Part shown: one piece after another, positions 1,583 to 10,046 of the stretch
How positions within the stretch are numbered: the stretch's first letter is position 1
How the letters are laid out: every line of letters starts with the position of its first letter
Source: an uncultured Fibrobacteraceae bacterium
GTDB lineage: Bacteria > Krumholzibacteriota > Krumholzibacteriia > LZORAL124-64-63
Assembly (NCBI GenBank): GCA_964559455.1
Contig: CAZLHO010000079.1
Location: 1 to 10,440 of the forward strand
Direction of reading: 5' to 3'
DNA: 10,440 nucleotides
Program-made: the position numbers and the translations under genes
The notes under the pieces: model-generated
The model's input: only the letters and a program-made list of their open reading frames with translations
Told to the model about the DNA's origin: nothing
Database searches by the model: none

Positions 1583-1683
1583 AGGCCGATTGGCCGGGAT
1601 TTTTGCCGACAACGCCCCATAAGAGACTAGGAATAAACCATTTATAAAATATCGCCTGTGGCCGAAAAATGCGCCCGCGGGTC

Positions 1684-1713
1684 TTGACGGCAAGCCCTCA
1701 TCGGAACTAGATT
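1684..1713 (+). promoter_or_regulatory. candidate sigma70-type promoter for the speH-SET operon (TTGACG-N18-TAGATT)
   Basis: TTGACG lies at 1684-1689 and TAGATT at 1708-1713 with an 18-nt spacer. It sits in the only AT-rich stretch upstream of speH (1583-1750). The predicted leader is about 110 nt. Confidence 0.3.
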
Positions 1714-1726
1714 TCTCCCCTGTTTT

Positions 1727-1741
1727 GCGCCCGCCGGGCGC
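1727..1741. repeat. perfect 7-1-7 inverted repeat GCGCCCG-C-CGGGCGC in the speH leader
   Basis: The arms are exactly complementary. It lies just downstream of the candidate speH promoter (about +7 to +21). On the plus strand it is preceded, not followed, by a T-run, so it is unlikely to be a terminator. Confidence 0.3.
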
Positions 1742-1832
1742 GACATCATGATGCCGTCCAAAGCCTGGGCCCCCCGGTGCAGACCCGAAGACGGCGACGT
1801 TTTCCGACCTTTCGAAACGGGGGGTTCATGGA

Positions 1833-2204
1833 TTGTACAAGGGCAAACACCTCTTAGTCGATTGCCGCAACGTTCCGCGCGAGATCTGCCTCGACGACCG
1901 GTTCCTGCTGATCGCCCTGGCCGAGGCCGCGGAGCAGGCCGGCGCCACGGTCATCTCCCAGATCCGGTACAAGTTCGGCAGCGAGTCGCCTCCGGGCTGC
2001 ACGGCCATCGTCATGCTGGACGAGAGCCACTGCTCGGCGCACACCTACGCCGACCAGGGCCTGGTCGCCCTCGACTTCTTCACCTGCGGGACCACCGATC
2101 CCTGGCAGGTGTGGAGGCTGATCGAGGCCAAGCTGCCGGGCGTCGAGGCCACCGTGCGCGAAGTCGACCGGTTCACGCCCGCGGGGGAACCCGCGCGCGT
2201 ATGA
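1833..2204 (+). CDS. speH: S-adenosylmethionine decarboxylase proenzyme, class 1b pyruvoyl-dependent (SpeH-like; an arginine-decarboxylase paralogue cannot be excluded)
   Basis: At 123 aa, this has the hallmark motifs of the small bacterial/archaeal AdoMetDC family: GKHLLVDCRNV at the N-terminus, the self-cleavage site DESHCSAHTY (the Glu-Ser bond, where Ser becomes pyruvoyl), DFFTCG and DPW. The start is a TTG at 1833, preceded by GGGGGG (1819-1824) with an 8-nt spacer. It is the first start codon in the open frame after a TGA at 1749-1751. Confidence 0.78.
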   Translation: MYKGKHLLVDCRNVPREICLDDRFLLIALAEAAEQAGATVISQIRYKFGSESPPGCTAIVMLDESHCSAHTYADQGLVALDFFTCGTTDPWQVWRLIEAKLPGVEATVREVDRFTPAGEPARV

Positions 2205-2698
2205 CACCGACGTCCCGGGCGGTCATCGTCGGGGATTGCAGCTTGGGCAAGGGACTCTACGCCGGCAGGCCCTTTTCCGCCGGCGAGAGGATCCTGAACC
2301 TGAGCGGCTGCCGCTTCGACCGCGACGACCCCATCCATCACCTCGCCGTCGGAGCGAACCTGCTCCAGACGGGCCGGCTCACGTATATCCTGCTCGAGCC
2401 GCCCGGCGTCTTCGCGAACCACTCCTGCAATCCCAACGCCGGCATCTTGGGCAACCGCCATCTCGTCGCCATCCGCGCGATCGCCGCGGGCGAGGAGATC
2501 CGCTACGACTACTCCACGACCATGGACGAGGATTACTGGACCCTGGACTGCCGTTGCGGGGAACCGGGATGCCGCGGCCTGGTCCGGGACTTCAAGTACC
2601 TGCCGCCCGAACTGCAGCGCCGCTACCTGGACCTGGGGATCGTGCAGGGATTCATCGCCCGGCGCTGCCGGTCGCGTCTGGCGTCGCAGGCCAGCTAG
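2201..2698 (+). CDS. minimal SET-domain protein methyltransferase with post-SET Cys cluster
   Basis: At 165 aa, it carries the SET-N GxG motif (LGKGLYAG), the SAM-binding/pseudoknot motif FANHSCNPN, the catalytic-Tyr motif EEIRYDY, and the post-SET Zn motif CRCGEPGCRG. The ATG at 2201 overlaps the speH TGA (2202-2204) as ATGA, which indicates translational coupling. The long in-frame N-terminal extension back to 1748 is an R/G/P-rich shadow of speH and was not called. Confidence 0.8.
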   Translation: MTPTSRAVIVGDCSLGKGLYAGRPFSAGERILNLSGCRFDRDDPIHHLAVGANLLQTGRLTYILLEPPGVFANHSCNPNAGILGNRHLVAIRAIAAGEEIRYDYSTTMDEDYWTLDCRCGEPGCRGLVRDFKYLPPELQRRYLDLGIVQGFIARRCRSRLASQAS

Positions 2699-2701
2699 GG
2701 A

Positions 2702-4003
2702 TCAGTCCTCGACTTCGCGCAGGAACCAGGCCAGCCCGCCGCCGGCCAAACCCAGCATGGCGAAGACCAGCACCACCCCGCGGGCGCCGATCGCCGGAGC
2801 CAGCAGGCCGACCGAACCGCTCAGCAGCAGCACGACCCCGATCAGGGTGTTGCTGACCGCCACGTACGAGGCCCGCCGGTCGGCCGGGGCCATGTCCAGG
2901 ATGTAGACCTGGCGTCCGACGCGGATGCCGGTGTGGGCCAGCGCCACCAGCAGGTAGAGCCCGCCGTAGACGGCCAGCGCCCAGTTCCCCGACACTGCGA
3001 AGCCCGAGACCAGGAAGGTGGCCACCCCGATCAGGCCGACGGCCAGGCCGGCCACGGACAGGGTCCGCCGGCTGGAGCGGTCGGCCTGCCAGCCCCAGAC
3101 CGGGGCGCTGAGGGCCTTGGCCGCGCTCGCGGCCACCATCAGCACGCCCAGGCCGGCCAGCCGCCCGGCGGTGGCCTCGCGGGCCAGGATCACGTAGTAG
3201 GGCATCGAGAGCACCGTGCCGGCCAGCAGGGCGCGCGCGATGCAGAAGTTGCGGAAGTCCACGTCGGCGGCCAGGAAGCGCAGGCTGTGCAGGGCCACCT
3301 TCAGGGCGTTGCCGCCCCCCTCGACGGCGCCGGGCAGTTCGACGACCCGCGCCATCGTCAACGCGCCGGCCAGCCAGGCCGCGCCGGCGACCGTCAGCAG
3401 CAGGGCGAACTGCCGCCCCCCGAAGCCTTCCGGATCGCTCACGGCGAAGAAGAGCCCCACCCCCAGGGCGATCCCTCCCGCCGCCATCTCGGCCAGGCCG
3501 CTCAGGCGCCCGCGGCGGGTGCGGGGGATCGTCTTGCCCTGGATATCCTTCGACGAGACCGAGCTCGCCGCGCGTCCGAAGCTGAAGACGGCCAGCAGGG
3601 CGACCGTCGTCCAGCCCGCCGCCGCTCCCCGCAGCAAGGCGGCCGTCAACGCGATCGAGAGCACGGCCGCCGCCTGCACGACCGCGCCGCCCACCCAGAA
3701 ATGCTTGCGGATCGGCCGGCGGCGCAGCGCGCCGCCGATCGCCAACTGGGGCAGCAATGCGCCGGCCTCGCGCACGGGCACCAGCATGCCGATCGCCGCG
3801 GCCGGCGCCCCGAGGACGGACAGCATCCAGGTCAACACGAGCTTGGGATCGCTCAGGGCGTCGCCCAGCTTGGTCGCGGTCTGGGCGCCGAGCAGGCGGA
3901 AGAAGTTGGCGGGCACGTCGGTGCAGGCCGCCTCGGGGATGTCCTTGCAGACGCGGGCGTTCTCTTCCTCGTTCGCGATCAGGGCGTAAAGGCGCTCGCG
4001 CAC
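2702..4003 (-). CDS. MFS-type transporter, 12 predicted TM helices, with a cytoplasmic N-terminal extension of about 45 aa
   Basis: At 433 aa, it shows hydrophobic helix periodicity throughout. A basic loop (RTRRGRLSG) follows TM helices 3-4 and the inter-domain loop (RQVYILDMAPADRRAS) follows TM8, both in MFS-motif-A-like positions. The GTG start at 4003 lies 1 nt after the stop of the upstream POT gene (TGAgGTG), so the two form an operon. It converges on the SET gene with only 3 nt between the stop codons. Confidence 0.78.
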   Translation of the reverse strand: MRERLYALIANEEENARVCKDIPEAACTDVPANFFRLLGAQTATKLGDALSDPKLVLTWMLSVLGAPAAAIGMLVPVREAGALLPQLAIGGALRRRPIRKHFWVGGAVVQAAAVLSIALTAALLRGAAAGWTTVALLAVFSFGRAASSVSSKDIQGKTIPRTRRGRLSGLAEMAAGGIALGVGLFFAVSDPEGFGGRQFALLLTVAGAAWLAGALTMARVVELPGAVEGGGNALKVALHSLRFLAADVDFRNFCIARALLAGTVLSMPYYVILAREATAGRLAGLGVLMVAASAAKALSAPVWGWQADRSSRRTLSVAGLAVGLIGVATFLVSGFAVSGNWALAVYGGLYLLVALAHTGIRVGRQVYILDMAPADRRASYVAVSNTLIGVVLLLSGSVGLLAPAIGARGVVLVFAMLGLAGGGLAWFLREVED

Positions 4004-4004
4004 C

Positions 4005-5351
4005 TCACACCGCCTGGCGCGCGTCCAATCGGCGCGTGACCGCGATGTAGACGACCAGCGCCGTCAGCGAGATCAGGCCGACGACGACGTAGGCGTACCA
4101 CAGGTAGTGGGCCTGGGCGTAGACCTCGGGCATGGGCCCCTGGCCGACCAGGGCCAGGTCGTGGGCGGCGCGAGTGGCCTCGTCCAACGTGCCCGGCTCC
4201 GGGCAATACTTCCTGAGCAGGAATCCCGAGAAGATGAAGCCGAAGATCCAGGCGAAGAAGGTGTTCATGTGGGCGAAGCCGAGGAAAGTGCCCTCCTTGC
4301 CCTTGGGCGCCTGCAGCGAGGCGAACTCCAGCCACTTGGGACTCAGGAAGCACTCGGCGATGCCCTGGATCGAGATGCCGATGATCATCATGAAGGTGAT
4401 CGGATGCATCTGGAGCCCGAAGATGTTGACCATGCCGTGGAACCACGCGGACGCGGCCATGGACACCGCAGAGAGCGGGATCAGCATCATGGCGACCAGT
4501 ATCGCGTTCTGCGGCTTCCACTTGCGAATCAACTGCGTGATCATCACGACGAAGATCACGACCACCAGCGGGTTGATGTTCGCGTACCACTCGGGCTTGT
4601 AGGTCTCGCCGGCCATGCGCAGCACGTAGTCGGGCATCGAGGCGTAGAGCTGGCCCTGGATCGCCCAGAAGCCGGCGGTGATCAGGATCAGGAAGAGGAA
4701 GCGCAGGTTGCTCATCGCCATCCACATGCCCTGGAGCGTTTCCTTCACCGTCCTGCTCTGGCCCTGGCCGTCGCCCTTGTCCGGGAAGTAGATCAGCGCC
4801 ACCAGGATCAACGCGATCAGGGCGGCGGCCGCCGAGAACCAGGGCACGTTCTCGACGCCCAGGTCGATCCGGATCGGGGCCACGATGGTCTTTCCGGTGA
4901 ACGAACCGATGTTCACGACCATGTAGAATATCGAGAAGGCCCGCGCCCGGTTCGCCTCGTCGGAGGACTTGCTCACCGTTCCGGTGATGACCGGCTTGAC
5001 GATCGCGCCTCCCAGCACGATCAGCACGAGGCCGACAATCACCGGACCGAGAGTGCTGAACATCCCCAGCGCGCTGTAGCCCGCCGTCAGCAGCGCGAAG
5101 GCCGCCATCAGGGCGTAGCGGAAGCCGATGCGATCGGCCAGGGCGCCGGTGAAGAAGGGCACCAGGTAGATCCAGCCGCCGAACATGCCGGCCACCAGGC
5201 CGGCCTCCACGTCGTCCAGGCCGACGACGCGGATCAGGTAGGTGCGCAGGGCGATGAAGGTGCCGTAGTAGGCGGCGCGTTCGCAGAGCTCGGCGACGTT
5301 GCCGGTCCAGAACATCCGGGGAAAGCGCCAGGTCGTCGCGGCCTGGGACAT
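4005..5351 (-). CDS. POT/PTR2-family proton-dependent oligopeptide transporter
   Basis: At 448 aa, it has the PTR2 signature ELCERAAYYG near the N-terminus and GGWIYLVPFFTGALADRIGFRYAL, which corresponds to the DtpA/DtpT motif-2 region. About 12 TM segments are predicted. A GGAGG ribosome-binding site lies 6 nt upstream of the ATG at 5351. Confidence 0.7.
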   Translation of the reverse strand: MSQAATTWRFPRMFWTGNVAELCERAAYYGTFIALRTYLIRVVGLDDVEAGLVAGMFGGWIYLVPFFTGALADRIGFRYALMAAFALLTAGYSALGMFSTLGPVIVGLVLIVLGGAIVKPVITGTVSKSSDEANRARAFSIFYMVVNIGSFTGKTIVAPIRIDLGVENVPWFSAAAALIALILVALIYFPDKGDGQGQSRTVKETLQGMWMAMSNLRFLFLILITAGFWAIQGQLYASMPDYVLRMAGETYKPEWYANINPLVVVIFVVMITQLIRKWKPQNAILVAMMLIPLSAVSMAASAWFHGMVNIFGLQMHPITFMMIIGISIQGIAECFLSPKWLEFASLQAPKGKEGTFLGFAHMNTFFAWIFGFIFSGFLLRKYCPEPGTLDEATRAAHDLALVGQGPMPEVYAQAHYLWYAYVVVGLISLTALVVYIAVTRRLDARQAV

Positions 5352-9107: not shown

Positions 9108-10046
9108 CTAGCGGCCGCCGTCGGCGTCGGTGAGGAATCTGTAGAAGTCCCCCTCGGTGGTCAGCACCAGCGTGCTCTTCTCGTCCAGGGCCACCGGATA
9201 GGTCTCCATCGTCTTCAGGAAAACGTAGAACGACCTGGTGTCGGCCGACCGGTCGTAGGCCGCAGCGTAGATGTTCGTCGCGCCGGCGTCGGCCCGGCCG
9301 CGGATCTCCTCGGCCGTCTTGTAGGCCTCGGACTGGATGCGCAGCAGCTCGCGGTCCTTCTCGCCGCGGATGCGGGAGGCCTCGCCCTCGCCCTCGCTGC
9401 GGAAGCGGTCGGCGATGCGCTTGCGCTCGGCGATCATCCGCTCGAAGACCTTGCGCTCCACCTCGTCCACGTAGTTGATGCGCTTGAACTGCAGGTCGAG
9501 GATCTCGATGCCCAGGTCGGTCGTCCGCGCCTGGGCGTTGGCCAGGATCTCGCGGTGGATGATCTCGCGGCCGGCCTCGATCGCCTCCAGGATCACCTGG
9601 TCCTCTTCGAGCATGCCGCCCAGTTCGGGCTCGCGGTTGGTGCTGCGCACCACCTCGACGACGTCGTACTTGGCGATGGCGTTGCGGGTCTCGCCGTCCA
9701 GGATGTCGTCCAGGCGGGTCTGCGCGCCGCGCTCGTCGCGCAGGCGCTGGAAGTACAGCAGCGGGTCGCTGATGCGCCAGCGGGCGTAGGTGTTCACCCA
9801 GATGAAGCGCTTGTCCTTGGTGGGCAGCTGGTTGGGGTCGCCGTCCCACTCCAGGAAGCGCTTGTCGAAGCGGTTCACCTTCTGGATGAAGGGAGTCTTG
9901 ACCTTCAGGCCCGGCGTGACGACCGGATCGCCCACCGGCTTGCCGAACTGCGTGATGATCACCTGTTCGGTCTCGTTCAGGACATAGAAAGCGTTGGCCA
10001 CGGCGATCAGCACGATGACGCCGATGATGATTCCCAGATAACGCAT
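9108..10046 (-). CDS. hflC: HflC, SPFH/band-7 modulator of FtsH protease
   Basis: It has an N-terminal TM anchor (MRYLGIIIGVIVLIAVANAF), an SPFH domain, and a coiled-coil region (ERKRIADRFRSEGEGEASRIRGEKDRELLRIQSEAY). The C-terminal DFYRFL is typical of HflC. The ATG at 10046 shares one nucleotide with the hflK stop codon (G-TGA-TG). A GTG at 10049 is an alternative start. Confidence 0.88.
   Translation of the reverse strand: MRYLGIIIGVIVLIAVANAFYVLNETEQVIITQFGKPVGDPVVTPGLKVKTPFIQKVNRFDKRFLEWDGDPNQLPTKDKRFIWVNTYARWRISDPLLYFQRLRDERGAQTRLDDILDGETRNAIAKYDVVEVVRSTNREPELGGMLEEDQVILEAIEAGREIIHREILANAQARTTDLGIEILDLQFKRINYVDEVERKVFERMIAERKRIADRFRSEGEGEASRIRGEKDRELLRIQSEAYKTAEEIRGRADAGATNIYAAAYDRSADTRSFYVFLKTMETYPVALDEKSTLVLTTEGDFYRFLTDADGGR

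What the first reader, a model, noticed from the sequence alone, without database searches (positions are those of the whole stretch)
1833..2698. Translationally coupled operon of a SpeH-like pyruvoyl decarboxylase and a minimal SET-domain methyltransferase
The stop codon of the AdoMetDC-like gene and the start codon of the SET-domain gene overlap (ATGA at 2201-2204), which implies co-expression at fixed stoichiometry. Small class-1b AdoMetDC genes normally sit next to spermidine synthase (speE), and no aminopropyltransferase is visible within the rest of the window. SET-domain proteins are uncommon in bacteria and, where context is known, are not linked to polyamine enzymes. Both partners bind S-adenosylmethionine or its decarboxylated product, which suggests a functional link. 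Possibilities are a SET-fold enzyme acting on or with dcSAM, a decarboxylase paralogue repurposed as an arginine decarboxylase (as in Crenarchaeota), or a dedicated protein- or small-molecule-modification pathway. I am not aware of this pairing being described.
Basis: partly seen in the sequence, partly recalled or inferred. Interest (0 to 1): 0.72.

Follow-up and report, generated by a model that had tools for sequence, protein, structure and literature searches.

The report
Reduced polyamine operon with SET methyltransferase
A small decarboxylase gene and a SET-type methyltransferase gene overlap by four bases. The pair looks like a cut-down homospermidine (polyamine) operon in which the 'SAM decarboxylase' is probably an arginine decarboxylase, and the SET enzyme is a recurrent partner I found described nowhere.

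Summary
A 123-aa AdoMet_dc-fold gene (1833-2204) and a 165-aa SET/post-SET gene (2201-2698) overlap in ATGA, and six independent assemblies show the same pair.

The SAM/dcSAM rationale does not hold. The decarboxylase belongs to a clade (at least 60% identical) that in related loci heads the operon dc, small charged protein 'X', agmatinase (SpeB) and deoxyhypusine-synthase homologue (SpeY). That is the published agmatine-dependent homospermidine cluster. The protein lacks the proline that marks true AdoMetDC, and no speE is nearby. It is most likely a pyruvoyl arginine decarboxylase (SpeDA).

The SET link is real and I found no description of it. SET ends or flanks that operon in Krumholzibacteria-like lineages. 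It lies next to SpeY-type polyamine genes in 7 of 43 deep SET lineages, including clusters that use the unrelated PdaD arginine decarboxylase. It also shares a conserved leader with no Rfam match, which precedes dc, X-SET or SET alone.

The window is a reduced form: leader, dc, SET. The SET substrate is unknown. I favour a 4-aminobutyl amine of agmatine or homospermidine, with BurB as precedent for a small-molecule SET enzyme. A protein lysine, possibly in X, is the main rival.

The parts
1684..1713 (+). Sigma-70-like promoter match (TTGACG, 18 nt spacer, TAGATT). It lies downstream of a terminator-like hairpin at 1576-1596 that ends the thioesterase gene.
   Evidence: This is a consensus match only (9 of 12 positions). 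It would place the transcript start just 5' of the leader hairpin.
1725..1743 (+). GC-rich leader hairpin (UGCGCCCG-CCG-GGCGCG). Relatives carry a hairpin of different sequence at the equivalent position.
   Evidence: folds show it in the window, L008, L090, L009, L001 and L092. Searches show that the sequence differs between lineages. Covariation was judged by eye, not scored.
1749..1795 (+). Conserved leader core. The window reads GAUGCCGUCCAAAGCCUGGGCCCCCCGGUGCAGACCCGAAGACGGC. The consensus is UGCCGUCCCCAAGCCCUGGACCCCCCGGAACAGAAGCGUAAGGCGGC. The C-run at 1770-1775 is complementary to the Shine-Dalgarno G-run at 1819-1824.
   Evidence: nhmmer finds one copy per locus in 27 loci (window E=4.5e-5). 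The alignment has 18 invariant and 18 near-invariant columns. The outer stem GCCGUC/GGCGGC becomes GCCGUC/GACGGC in the window, a U.G to U-A change. Six of six MFE folds pair the C-run with the G-run. No Rfam 15 family matches at E<=10.
1819..1824 (+). Invariant G-run (GGGGGG), the presumed Shine-Dalgarno sequence of the unit.
   Evidence: One search shows invariant columns. One search shows pairing with the C-run.
1828..1857 (+). Out-of-frame AUG that opens a 9-codon uORF (MDCTRANTS*) overlapping the dc start. Its spacing from the G-run (3 nt) is shorter than that of the UUG start (8 nt).
   Evidence: Read directly from the sequence. An AUG or GUG sits at this position in 19 of 19 related leaders. 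Its role is unexplained.
1833..2204 (+). Pyruvoyl-enzyme proenzyme of the class 1b AdoMetDC fold, 123 aa. It is most likely an arginine decarboxylase (SpeDA type). The Glu64-Ser65 cleavage site is at 2022-2027. His70 and Cys85 are present. Ala73 (2049-2051) replaces the Pro that marks true AdoMetDC.
   Evidence: The diagnostic is described in PMC10407285. Synteny of the clade with Arginase and DS genes is shown.
2201..2698 (+). SET plus post-SET methyltransferase, 165 aa. It carries GxG (G16, G18), NHSC (N73-C76, nt 2417-2428), RYDY (Y102-Y104), the post-SET Cys cluster (C117, C119, C124, with C76), and a conserved C-terminal two-helix extension (136-164).
   Evidence: The AF2 model has pLDDT 89.3.

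Best explanation
The window carries a reduced form of a conserved polyamine operon: leader, dc, SET.

Step 1 (inferred, probability about 0.8). The 'AdoMetDC' is a self-processing pyruvoyl enzyme that decarboxylates L-arginine to agmatine. This is the SpeDA type, a SpeD homologue that has changed function. In relatives it feeds SpeY, which couples two agmatines to N1,N9-bis(guanidino)homospermidine. A SpeB-type ureohydrolase then releases homospermidine.

Step 2 (shown by comparative genomics, probability about 0.75-0.8). The SET gene is a functional and regulatory partner of this pathway, not of SAM/dcSAM chemistry. It ends or flanks the operon in Krumholzibacteria-like lineages. It lies beside SpeY-type polyamine genes in several other deep lineages. 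It sits behind the same conserved leader even where it stands alone.

Step 3 (inferred, probability about 0.35-0.4). SET uses SAM to N-methylate a 4-aminobutyl amine. That group is chemically the lysine side chain. I favour a free pathway amine (agmatine or homospermidine) over a protein lysine. If so, the window's two genes could form a self-contained route from Arg to agmatine to N-methylated agmatine.

Step 4 (inferred, weak). Expression is set at translation initiation by the leader, whose C-run can pair with the G-run Shine-Dalgarno sequence.

The X, speB and speY genes that separate dc from SET in most relatives are missing here. They were either deleted or moved elsewhere in the genome.
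For: Arginine decarboxylase assignment:
- Close homologues of dc (58-72% identical) head the series dc, X, Arginase-family, DS-family in more than 20 loci. They head dc-DS or dc-X-DS in Hydrogenedentota and one other genome.
- This is the speDA-speB-speY cluster characterised biochemically in PMC10407285 and PMC13625781.
- The window protein keeps the Glu-Ser cleavage site and the catalytic His and Cys. It has Ala where true AdoMetDCs have an invariant Pro, as does every member of its clade.
- The Nitrotoga homologue L046 does keep the Pro, so the position varies among the dc homologues collected here.
- In L075 and L016 the unrelated pyruvoyl arginine decarboxylase PdaD (PF01862) takes the dc position next to DS and Arginase.
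- No SpeE-like sequence was found in the 2.05 Mb of sequence collected around dc and SET loci, nor within about 10 kb of the window.

SET link to the pathway:
- After dereplication at 62% SET identity, 7 of 43 lineages (37 with informative flanks) have dc, PdaD, Arginase, DS or AguA within 6 kb. At 95% identity the figure is 26 of 122 clusters.
- Gene orders differ between these lineages.
- Chance expectation is roughly 0.15 lineages (my estimate).
- The leader core precedes dc operons, but also X-SET in L001 and SET alone in L009 and L010.

Small-molecule option:
- The top structural match is BurB, a SET enzyme that methylates free methionine.
- The similarity to BurB runs past the post-SET motif into the C-terminal extension.
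- In other phyla SET sits in an operon with small EamA-type membrane proteins.
Against: - NCBIfam's equivalog model for AdoMetDC passes its cutoff. The authors of the SpeDA work say that SpeDA and SpeD are hard to separate by sequence. No characterised SpeDA sequence was available for a tree.
- The window and its longer contigs hold no speB, speY or X. The pathway context is therefore borrowed from relatives that are 58-72% identical.
- speE or speY could lie elsewhere in this unbinned genome.
- Most SET lineages (about 30 of 37) show no polyamine gene within the flanks. Many sit beside GGDEF-EAL or adenylate cyclase genes instead.
- All characterised SET enzymes except BurB/MSMT act on protein lysines. 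X carries a near-invariant Lys in a basic motif and travels with SET in L001, L007 and L073.
- No methylated agmatine or homospermidine product of bacteria turned up in the literature search.
- The leader's stems are nearly invariant, so covariation support is minimal. Fold z-scores are unremarkable.
Confidence: 0.45

Rival explanations
1. The operon reading is the same, but SET is a conventional protein-lysine methyltransferase. Its target would be the small protein X (near-invariant Lys in the motif [DE]-x-K-P-x-x-[RK]-R-[RK], followed by a poly-Asp/Glu tail), a pathway enzyme, or another conserved protein.
For: - The family has the canonical SET and post-SET motifs, and its best sequence matches are MLL-type histone methyltransferases.
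- X lies immediately upstream of SET in L001, L007 and L073, where dc, speB and speY are absent. It lies inside every Krumholzi-type operon.
- In other phyla SET sits directly downstream of signalling proteins (REC-PAS-GGDEF-EAL, HAMP-cyclase) that could be substrates.
Against: - X was not found near SET in the window, in L004, L009 or L010, or in most SET lineages. It cannot be the universal substrate of so conserved a family.
- X also occurs without SET (L167).
- The association with biosynthetic enzymes and small transporters fits a metabolite better.
- BurB shows that SET enzymes can take small molecules.
Confidence: 0.25
2. There is no functional link. SET is a neighbour retained by synteny and operon read-through. 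The window's overlap is a by-product of a deletion.
For: - Most SET lineages lack nearby polyamine genes.
- Within Krumholzibacteria several loci have SET elsewhere (L007, L014, L100, L101).
- dc-SpeY clusters exist without SET.
Against: - Adjacency recurs in 7 deep lineages with different gene orders, different arginine decarboxylase types, and either SpeB or AguA.
- The shared leader precedes SET alone in L009 and L010.
- SET stays beside the cluster through at least four rearrangement types.
Confidence: 0.12
3. A sulfonium pathway. SET is a BurB-like methionine S-methyltransferase that makes S-methylmethionine. The AdoMetDC homologue decarboxylates this SAM-like sulfonium to DMSP-amine.
For: - BurB is the top structural hit, and the top sequence hit for the C-terminal half.
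- S-methylmethionine and SAM are both methionine sulfonium compounds, so an AdoMetDC fold could plausibly accept it (chemical reasoning).
- The window pair would be self-sufficient.
Against: - Identity to BurB is only 27%, and MLL1 scores as well or better overall.
- BurB has LLHSC where this family has the invariant NHSC.
- No aminotransferase, amine oxidase or aldehyde dehydrogenase for later DMSP steps is near any locus.
- Known S-methylmethionine decarboxylases are PLP enzymes.
- The dc clade is tied to SpeB and SpeY.
Confidence: 0.06
4. One reading: a true AdoMetDC supplies dcSAM, and the SET-fold enzyme uses or processes it.
For: - Pfam and NCBIfam name the protein AdoMetDC.
- One distant cluster (L046, Nitrotoga) pairs a Pro-containing, AdoMetDC-like homologue with a class I methyltransferase, two SET genes and a DS homologue.
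Against: - The diagnostic Pro is missing.
- The clade is syntenic with SpeB and SpeY, and never with speE.
- PdaD replaces dc in equivalent clusters.
- SET occurs widely without any AdoMetDC homologue nearby.
Confidence: 0.04

Closest known systems
speDA-speB-speY agmatine-dependent homospermidine gene cluster (Li, Michael et al., J Biol Chem 2023 PMC10407285 and 2026 PMC13625781)
   Same: The decarboxylase has the same small class 1b AdoMetDC fold with an intact Ser/His/Cys catalytic set and no diagnostic Pro. Relatives of the window gene sit in the same gene set: SpeD homologue, Arginase-family ureohydrolase and DS-family SpeY. speE is absent.
   Different: The window itself has lost, or never had, speB and speY at this locus. 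This lineage adds three components that neither paper mentions: a SET methyltransferase, a basic/poly-acidic small protein X, and a conserved leader. Activity of this clade has not been tested.
Class 1b S-adenosylmethionine decarboxylase (SpeD/SpeH; Thermotoga maritima 1TLU, 3IWB)
   Same: Same fold, length and self-cleavage motif (E-S). The His and Cys align (E=5.7e-14). It passes TIGR03330.
   Different: T. maritima reads HTWPE and the window reads HTYAD, so the Pro is Ala. There is no speE partner nearby. The clade's genomic partners are agmatine-pathway enzymes.
BurB/MSMT, the SET-domain methionine S-methyltransferase of bacterial DMSP/malleicyprol synthesis (PDB 9L4V/9L4T; PMC12542666)
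   Same: Both are small stand-alone bacterial SET plus post-SET proteins of about 160-180 aa with a C-terminal extension. BurB is the best Foldseek hit (E=7e-10), and the best sequence hit for residues 72-141. It shows that a SET enzyme can methylate a free metabolite.
   Different: Identity is only 27%. The model-to-structure rmsd is 6.3 A. The NHSC motif is LLHSC in BurB. No bur- or DMSP-type neighbours are present. The nucleophile here is more likely an amine than a thioether.
Eukaryotic and viral SET-domain lysine methyltransferases (MLL1-4, ASH1L, NSD, vSET)
   Same: The GxG, NHSC and YDY motifs and the CxCxxxxC post-SET zinc motif are all present. The profile scores 57 bits against the MLL1 SET domain. 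TM-score is about 0.6-0.66.
   Different: There are no flanking chromatin-reader or AWS/pre-SET domains. The family carries its own invariant blocks (DPIH, LLQTG, STTM, C-terminal YL..G.VQGFIA). It is found in free-living bacteria, CPR and DPANN. Its context is metabolic and signalling genes.
Shine-Dalgarno-sequestering riboswitches and leaders (for example the guanidine-III class, recalled from memory)
   Same: A short, highly conserved element with a C-rich loop complementary to the downstream Shine-Dalgarno sequence, placed in front of genes that make a guanidino compound.
   Different: No Rfam 15 model matches at E<=10. No ligand is known and there is almost no covariation. It could equally be a protein-binding site, for instance for the arginine-rich motif of X.

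Membership tests
SpeDA (SpeD homologue that has become a pyruvoyl L-arginine decarboxylase) | Class 1b AdoMet_dc fold with the self-cleavage Ser and the catalytic His and Cys (T. maritima S63, H68, C83) | tested here: met
   PF02675 scores 86 bits. E64-S65, H70 and C85 align with T. maritima E62-S63, H68 and C83. They are conserved in all clade members.
SpeDA (SpeD homologue that has become a pyruvoyl L-arginine decarboxylase) | Loss of the Pro that is invariant in true AdoMetDC (position gamma of Fig. 8 in PMC10407285) | tested here: met
   The window reads HTYAD and T. maritima reads HTWPE. All 15 Krumholzi-type homologues have Ala or Val at this position. L046 keeps the Pro.
SpeDA (SpeD homologue that has become a pyruvoyl L-arginine decarboxylase) | Occurs without speE and with agmatine-consuming enzymes (SpeB or AguA, and SpeY) | tested here: inconclusive
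   No speE was found within about 10 kb, or in any collected locus. However, speB and speY are also absent from the window. They are present next to the homologue in more than 20 related loci. The whole genome is not available.
SpeDA (SpeD homologue that has become a pyruvoyl L-arginine decarboxylase) | Decarboxylates L-arginine and not SAM | not testable with these tools
   This needs an enzyme assay or complementation of E. coli BL21 speD.
True class 1b AdoMetDC (SpeD/SpeH) | Passes the curated equivalog model | tested here: met
   TIGR03330 scores 86.7 bits against a cutoff of 75.65. The model predates the SpeDA work, so this does not discriminate between the two.
True class 1b AdoMetDC (SpeD/SpeH) | Invariant Pro after the H-T-aromatic motif | tested here: not met
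   Ala73 occupies the position.
True class 1b AdoMetDC (SpeD/SpeH) | Aminopropyltransferase (speE) partner | tested here: not met
   None was found in the window, in L081-L083, or in the 2.05 Mb of related loci. The genome-wide status is unknown.
SET-domain (class V) SAM-dependent methyltransferase | SET fold with the GxG, NHSC and (E)LxY/FDY motifs | tested here: met
   PF00856 scores 34.9 bits. G16, G18, N73-H74-S75-C76 and D103-Y104 are invariant. The AF2 model has pLDDT 89, and Foldseek probability is 1.00 against MLL1, ASH1L and BurB.
SET-domain (class V) SAM-dependent methyltransferase | Post-SET zinc-binding Cys cluster (CxCxxxxC plus the Cys of NHSC) | tested here: met
   C76, C117, C119 and C124 are invariant. 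They align with the MLL1 and BurB post-SET motifs.
SET-domain (class V) SAM-dependent methyltransferase | Protein-lysine substrate | not testable with these tools
   X provides a candidate Lys, but nothing was assayed.
BurB/MSMT methionine S-methyltransferases | Close sequence relationship and bur- or DMSP-type gene neighbours (PLP S-methylmethionine decarboxylase, aminotransferase, dehydrogenase) | tested here: not met
   Identity is 27%. NHSC is LLHSC in BurB. No such neighbours are present. Known S-methylmethionine decarboxylases are PLP enzymes.
SpeY-type homospermidine biosynthetic gene cluster | Presence of a DS-family SpeY and an Arginase- or AguA-family hydrolase in the locus | tested here: not met
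   Both are absent from the window and its 14-20 kb contigs. They are present in relatives. The window is best described as a derivative of such a cluster, not a member.
Known riboswitch or leader families (Rfam 15) | Match to a curated covariance model | tested here: not met
   No hit at E<=10 in window 1600-1850. L008 7130-7400 gave only a spurious sobemovirus frameshift-element match at E=2.4.

The most novel reading that the evidence does not exclude
This widespread bacterial SET family may be a small-molecule N-methyltransferase for the 4-aminobutyl amine of agmatine or homospermidine. It would be the first SET-domain enzyme of polyamine metabolism. On this reading the window's leader-dc-SET unit is a self-contained two-step route from arginine to N-methylated agmatine, and its translation is gated by a new ligand- or protein-responsive leader.
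Probability: 0.2. Interest if true: 0.8.

Novelty: new variant of a known kind. Interest (0 to 1): 0.6.

Why it matters
The function of stand-alone SET-domain proteins in free-living bacteria, CPR and DPANN is an open question. Almost everything known concerns host-histone effectors of pathogens.

This work ties one conserved SET family to a defined and recently characterised pathway, agmatine- and SpeY-dependent homospermidine synthesis. That yields a short list of candidate substrates that can be tested at the bench: agmatine, G44G, homospermidine, and the Lys of protein X.

It also extends the SpeDA/SpeY pathway with three components I found described nowhere: SET, the basic/poly-acidic protein X, and a conserved leader that can pair with the Shine-Dalgarno sequence. 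Together these may show how bacteria sense or modify homospermidine.

For annotation, it is another case where 'adenosylmethionine decarboxylase' is probably the wrong name.

Tried and rejected
- **speE search.** There was no hit.
- **Rfam.** I scanned the whole window and the leaders alone, and found nothing.
- **RNAalifold on the leader alignment.** It recovered only the outer stem and gave essentially no covariation. MAFFT could not align the variable upstream hairpin, so I did not build a covariance model.
- **DMSP / S-methylmethionine reading.** No downstream pathway genes are present, and known S-methylmethionine decarboxylases are PLP enzymes. I kept it only as a low-probability rival.
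- **Literature.** Searches for SET together with deoxyhypusine synthase, agmatinase or homospermidine returned nothing relevant. A search for methylated agmatine or homospermidine also returned nothing relevant.
- **Placing the decarboxylase in a tree with characterised SpeDA proteins.** Their sequences were not obtainable here. The supplement holds accession numbers only.
- **NJ trees of dc and SET.** I used them to ask whether the window and L004 (the two direct dc-SET loci) are sisters. They are not in either tree, but the trees are poorly resolved.
- **CPR and DPANN SET neighbourhoods.** There was no recurrent partner.
- **Stop-to-stop ORF clustering of neighbours.** It was too noisy in high-GC DNA, so I replaced it with a GC3-guided gene pick.
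- **Pfam on protein X.** No family matched.
Full report
**1. The observation**

The window holds two co-directional ORFs. One is 1833-2204 (TTG start, 123 aa) and the other is 2201-2698 (ATG start, 165 aa). They overlap in ATGA at 2201-2204.

The first ORF scores 86 bits on Pfam AdoMet_dc and 86.7 bits on NCBIfam TIGR03330 (cutoff 75.65). The second scores 34.9 bits on Pfam SET.

Six contigs from different samples and assemblers carry the identical SET protein and the same junction. The arrangement is therefore real.

The flanking genes are as follows:
- upstream: a metallo-beta-lactamase-fold protein and a YciA-like thioesterase;
- downstream, convergent: two MFS transporters;
- further on: an unknown protein, a GAF protein, a protein with a T9SS sorting tail, and HflC/HflK.

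None of these is a polyamine gene. The longer contigs add none within about 10 kb.

**2. Both genes are conserved**

The SET protein has 319 database clusters at E<=1e-3. The nearest non-self relatives are 60-71% identical. Relatives occur in 245 species-representative genomes and 297 metagenome stretches.

Nineteen diverse members share 49 invariant positions. These include GxG, NHSC, DY, and the four cysteines of a post-SET zinc site.

The decarboxylase has 482 clusters, and all of the top 120 are at least 61% identical. The pairing is not unique to this genome, and the SET ORF is not unconserved or disrupted.

**3. What the decarboxylase is**

I searched the 80 genome loci and 80 metagenome loci retrieved with the SET family for the window decarboxylase. 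I then searched them for the genes found beside it.

In Krumholzibacteria-like relatives the common arrangement is dc, a small ORF (X), an Arginase-family gene (PF00491, 217 bits), a deoxyhypusine-synthase-family gene (PF01916, 328 bits), and SET. Independent gene calls on L169 show the same five genes.

Other members of the dc clade head dc-DS or dc-X-DS without SET, in Hydrogenedentota and in a 6.45-Mb genome.

This is the speDA-speB-speY cluster of Li, Michael and colleagues. There a SpeD homologue has become a pyruvoyl arginine decarboxylase. SpeY joins two agmatines to N1,N9-bis(guanidino)homospermidine, and a SpeB-type ureohydrolase releases homospermidine (PMC10407285, PMC13625781).

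Those authors give one sequence discriminator. A Pro is invariant in true AdoMetDC and is lost in the arginine decarboxylases. T. maritima reads ESHLTIHTWPE. The window reads ESHCSAHTYAD, so the Pro is Ala73. The cleavage Ser65, His70 and Cys85 are intact.

Every member of the clade shows the same substitution. The distant homologue in the Nitrotoga locus L046 keeps the Pro.

In L075 (Leptospirales) and L016 (Lentisphaerales) the equivalent DS-plus-Arginase cluster carries the unrelated pyruvoyl arginine decarboxylase PdaD (PF01862, 213 bits) in place of dc. This is a non-orthologous replacement, and it points to the same function.

I therefore read the gene as a SpeDA-type arginine decarboxylase, with probability about 0.8. 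The caveats are:
- the NCBIfam equivalog hit;
- the authors' own warning that SpeDA and SpeD are hard to separate by sequence;
- the absence of speB and speY from the window itself.

**4. The SET link to the pathway**

Within the Krumholzibacteria-like clade SET keeps company with the cluster through several rearrangements:
- last gene of the operon (many loci);
- divergent from dc (L013, L102, L103, and L171, which holds the closest dc relative at 72% identity);
- directly after dc (the window; and L004, with a 165-nt gap);
- after X only (L001, L007);
- alone (L009, L010, L014 and others).

The window and L004 are not sisters in NJ trees of either protein. The trees are weak, but this suggests the two direct dc-SET junctions arose separately.

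Outside this clade, SET proteins only 41-57% identical to one another are also adjacent to polyamine genes:
- L021, and L137/L125: DS-like, Arginase, SET, with dc inserted in L137;
- L105: an AguA-type agmatine deiminase (PF04371, 268 bits) directly upstream, with DS 4 kb away;
- L075 and L109: SET convergent with (PdaD)-DS-Arginase;
- L016: PdaD-DS-Arginase about 5 kb away;
- L046: dc, a class I methyltransferase, SET, DS-like, a second SET, and a membrane protein.

After dereplication, 7 of 43 SET lineages at 62% identity (37 with usable flanks) have such a gene within 6 kb. At 95% identity the figure is 26 of 122 clusters. Chance would give roughly 0.15 lineages, on my estimate of about 15 kb in a genome of about 4 Mb.

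The association is therefore real. It is with the agmatine/SpeY pathway, not with SAM decarboxylation. I found no paper mentioning it.

**5. A shared leader**

About 40-90 nt upstream of dc lies a conserved core of about 47 nt. Its consensus is UGCCGUCCCCAAGCCCUGGACCCCCCGGAACAGAAGCGUAAGGCGGC, and the window copy is at 1749-1795.

A GC-rich hairpin precedes it, and the hairpin sequence differs in every lineage (window 1725-1743). An invariant G-run Shine-Dalgarno sequence follows it (window 1819-1824).

The outer stem GCCGUC/GGCGGC becomes GCCGUC/GACGGC in the window. Otherwise the stems are invariant, so covariation support is minimal.

In six of six leaders the minimum-energy fold pairs the C-run with the Shine-Dalgarno G-run. 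No Rfam 15 family matches.

nhmmer finds one copy per locus in 27 loci. These are all the dc operons, including those without SET. The element also lies upstream of X-SET in L001, and directly upstream of SET alone in L009 and L010. SET therefore belongs to the same cis-regulon as the polyamine genes. This is independent support for the link described in section 4.

In the window, a promoter-like site (1684-1713) and a terminator-like hairpin after the thioesterase gene (1576-1596) frame a bicistronic leader-dc-SET unit (consensus matches only).

**6. What SET does**

The AF2 model is confident (pLDDT 89.3).

The best Foldseek hit is BurB (9L4V, E=7e-10, 27% identity). MLL1-4 and ASH1L follow closely. 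Profile search ranks the MLL1 SET domain first (57 bits) and BurB at 47 bits. For the C-terminal half BurB ranks first, and the alignment runs past the post-SET motif into the extension.

BurB methylates free methionine (PMC12542666). A small-molecule substrate therefore has precedent.

Agmatine and homospermidine both end in a 4-aminobutyl amine, which is the lysine side chain. That makes them natural candidates.

Two further points are compatible with a metabolite substrate. In other phyla SET lies in an operon with small EamA-type membrane proteins: 14 loci with a 112-116 aa form immediately adjacent to SET, mostly directly upstream on the same strand, and 5 with a 146-aa form. SET is also adjacent to biosynthetic enzymes.

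Against this, the motifs are those of lysine methyltransferases. Protein X offers a near-invariant Lys. Many lineages place SET directly after GGDEF-EAL or HAMP-cyclase proteins.

I favour a pathway amine at about 0.35-0.4, and a protein lysine at about 0.25.

The S-methylmethionine reading (SET makes it, dc decarboxylates it) is chemically attractive for the isolated pair. It has no contextual support, and known S-methylmethionine decarboxylases are PLP enzymes.

**7. The window's own version**

The window has the leader, dc and SET, but not X, speB or speY.

Both genes keep all catalytic and invariant residues. They are about as diverged from relatives as each other (58-72% for dc, 59-70% for SET). 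Neither looks decayed.

Either the missing genes lie elsewhere in the genome, or dc plus SET work as a pair. This cannot be settled without the rest of the genome.

The ATGA overlap is specific to this lineage. Elsewhere the two genes are separated by three genes, by a 165-nt gap, or are divergent. Tight translational coupling is therefore not a general property of the system.

**8. Verdict**

The pairing is real, and I found no description of it. The arginine decarboxylase option is the right one. The SAM/dcSAM logic and the fixed-stoichiometry argument are not supported.

The decarboxylase is a new member of a known kind. The operon with SET, X and the leader is a new variant of the SpeDA/SpeY homospermidine system.

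Interest is 0.6. The finding gives the poorly understood bacterial SET families a concrete and testable metabolic context.

Noticed in passing
L008 7751-8080; L169 6455-6727; L167 6413-6646; L001 9653-9952; L007 about 9500-9730; L073 143-481 (absent from the window): Small protein X, 75-100 aa, has no Pfam match. It has an N-terminal arginine-rich segment with a near-invariant motif [DE]-x-K-P-x-x-[RK]-R-[RK], followed by a long Asp/Glu/Phe tail. It lies between dc and speB in every Krumholzi-type operon. It is also found between dc and SpeY without SET (L167), and immediately upstream of SET without polyamine genes (L001, L007, L073). It could be a SET substrate, a polyamine-binding buffer, or an RNA-binding regulator of the leader.
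   Followed up: partly
window 1725-1824; 26 further loci: A conserved leader with no match in Rfam 15. It consists of a variable hairpin, a 47-nt core with a C-run, and an invariant G-run Shine-Dalgarno sequence that the C-run can pair with. It precedes dc operons, X-SET (L001) and SET alone (L009, L010).
   Followed up: partly
window 1828-1857: An out-of-frame AUG lies 5 nt upstream of the UUG start of dc and closer to the G-run (3 nt against 8 nt). It opens a 9-10 codon uORF across the dc start. An AUG or GUG is present at this position in 19 of 19 related leaders, including Hydrogenedentota (L168). In the window the uORF stop (UAG) is created by a rare UUA Leu codon in dc. Its role is unexplained. 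It could be a decoy start, or a termination-reinitiation feed to the weak UUG.
   Followed up: no
L046 8662-13256 (Candidatus Nitrotoga sp. CP45): A different cluster with six genes. They are an AdoMetDC homologue that keeps the diagnostic Pro, a PrmA/PRMT-like class I methyltransferase, SET, a divergent DS-like gene, a second SET paralogue, and a 192-aa membrane protein. It may make a multiply methylated polyamine or guanidino compound.
   Followed up: no
L018, L026, L031, L035, L038, L039, L042, L045, L049, L050, L052, L057, L074, L077; L047, L055, L069, L079, L080: In Gemmatimonadales, Nostocales, Verrucomicrobiota and others, SET is flanked by a 112-116 aa four-helix EamA-like membrane protein, usually directly upstream with a gap of 12-57 nt. 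In some loci a 146-aa EamA protein lies downstream instead. Upstream there is often a REC-PAS-GGDEF-EAL protein, a hybrid histidine kinase or a HAMP-adenylate cyclase. This is a second recurrent context for the family.
   Followed up: partly
L001 9424-9560: In L001 the leader is followed by a sequence resembling the first ~20 nt of dc (TTGTTCGCGGCAAGCGATCTCC, against TTGTTCAAGGGCAAACACCTCA in L171). X and SET come next. This looks like a deletion of dc that left the leader in place.
   Followed up: no
window 1748-2698 (+): A 316-aa ORF in the SET frame runs upstream across the whole dc gene. It is a high-GC artefact. SET homologues all start near 2201, and the upstream part has no homologues.
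   Followed up: yes
window 2702-5351 (-): Two MFS-type transporters (433 aa, and a 448-aa POT/PTR2-like protein) converge on the SET stop with a 3-nt gap. They are not conserved next to SET in relatives, so a link to polyamine transport is not supported.
   Followed up: partly
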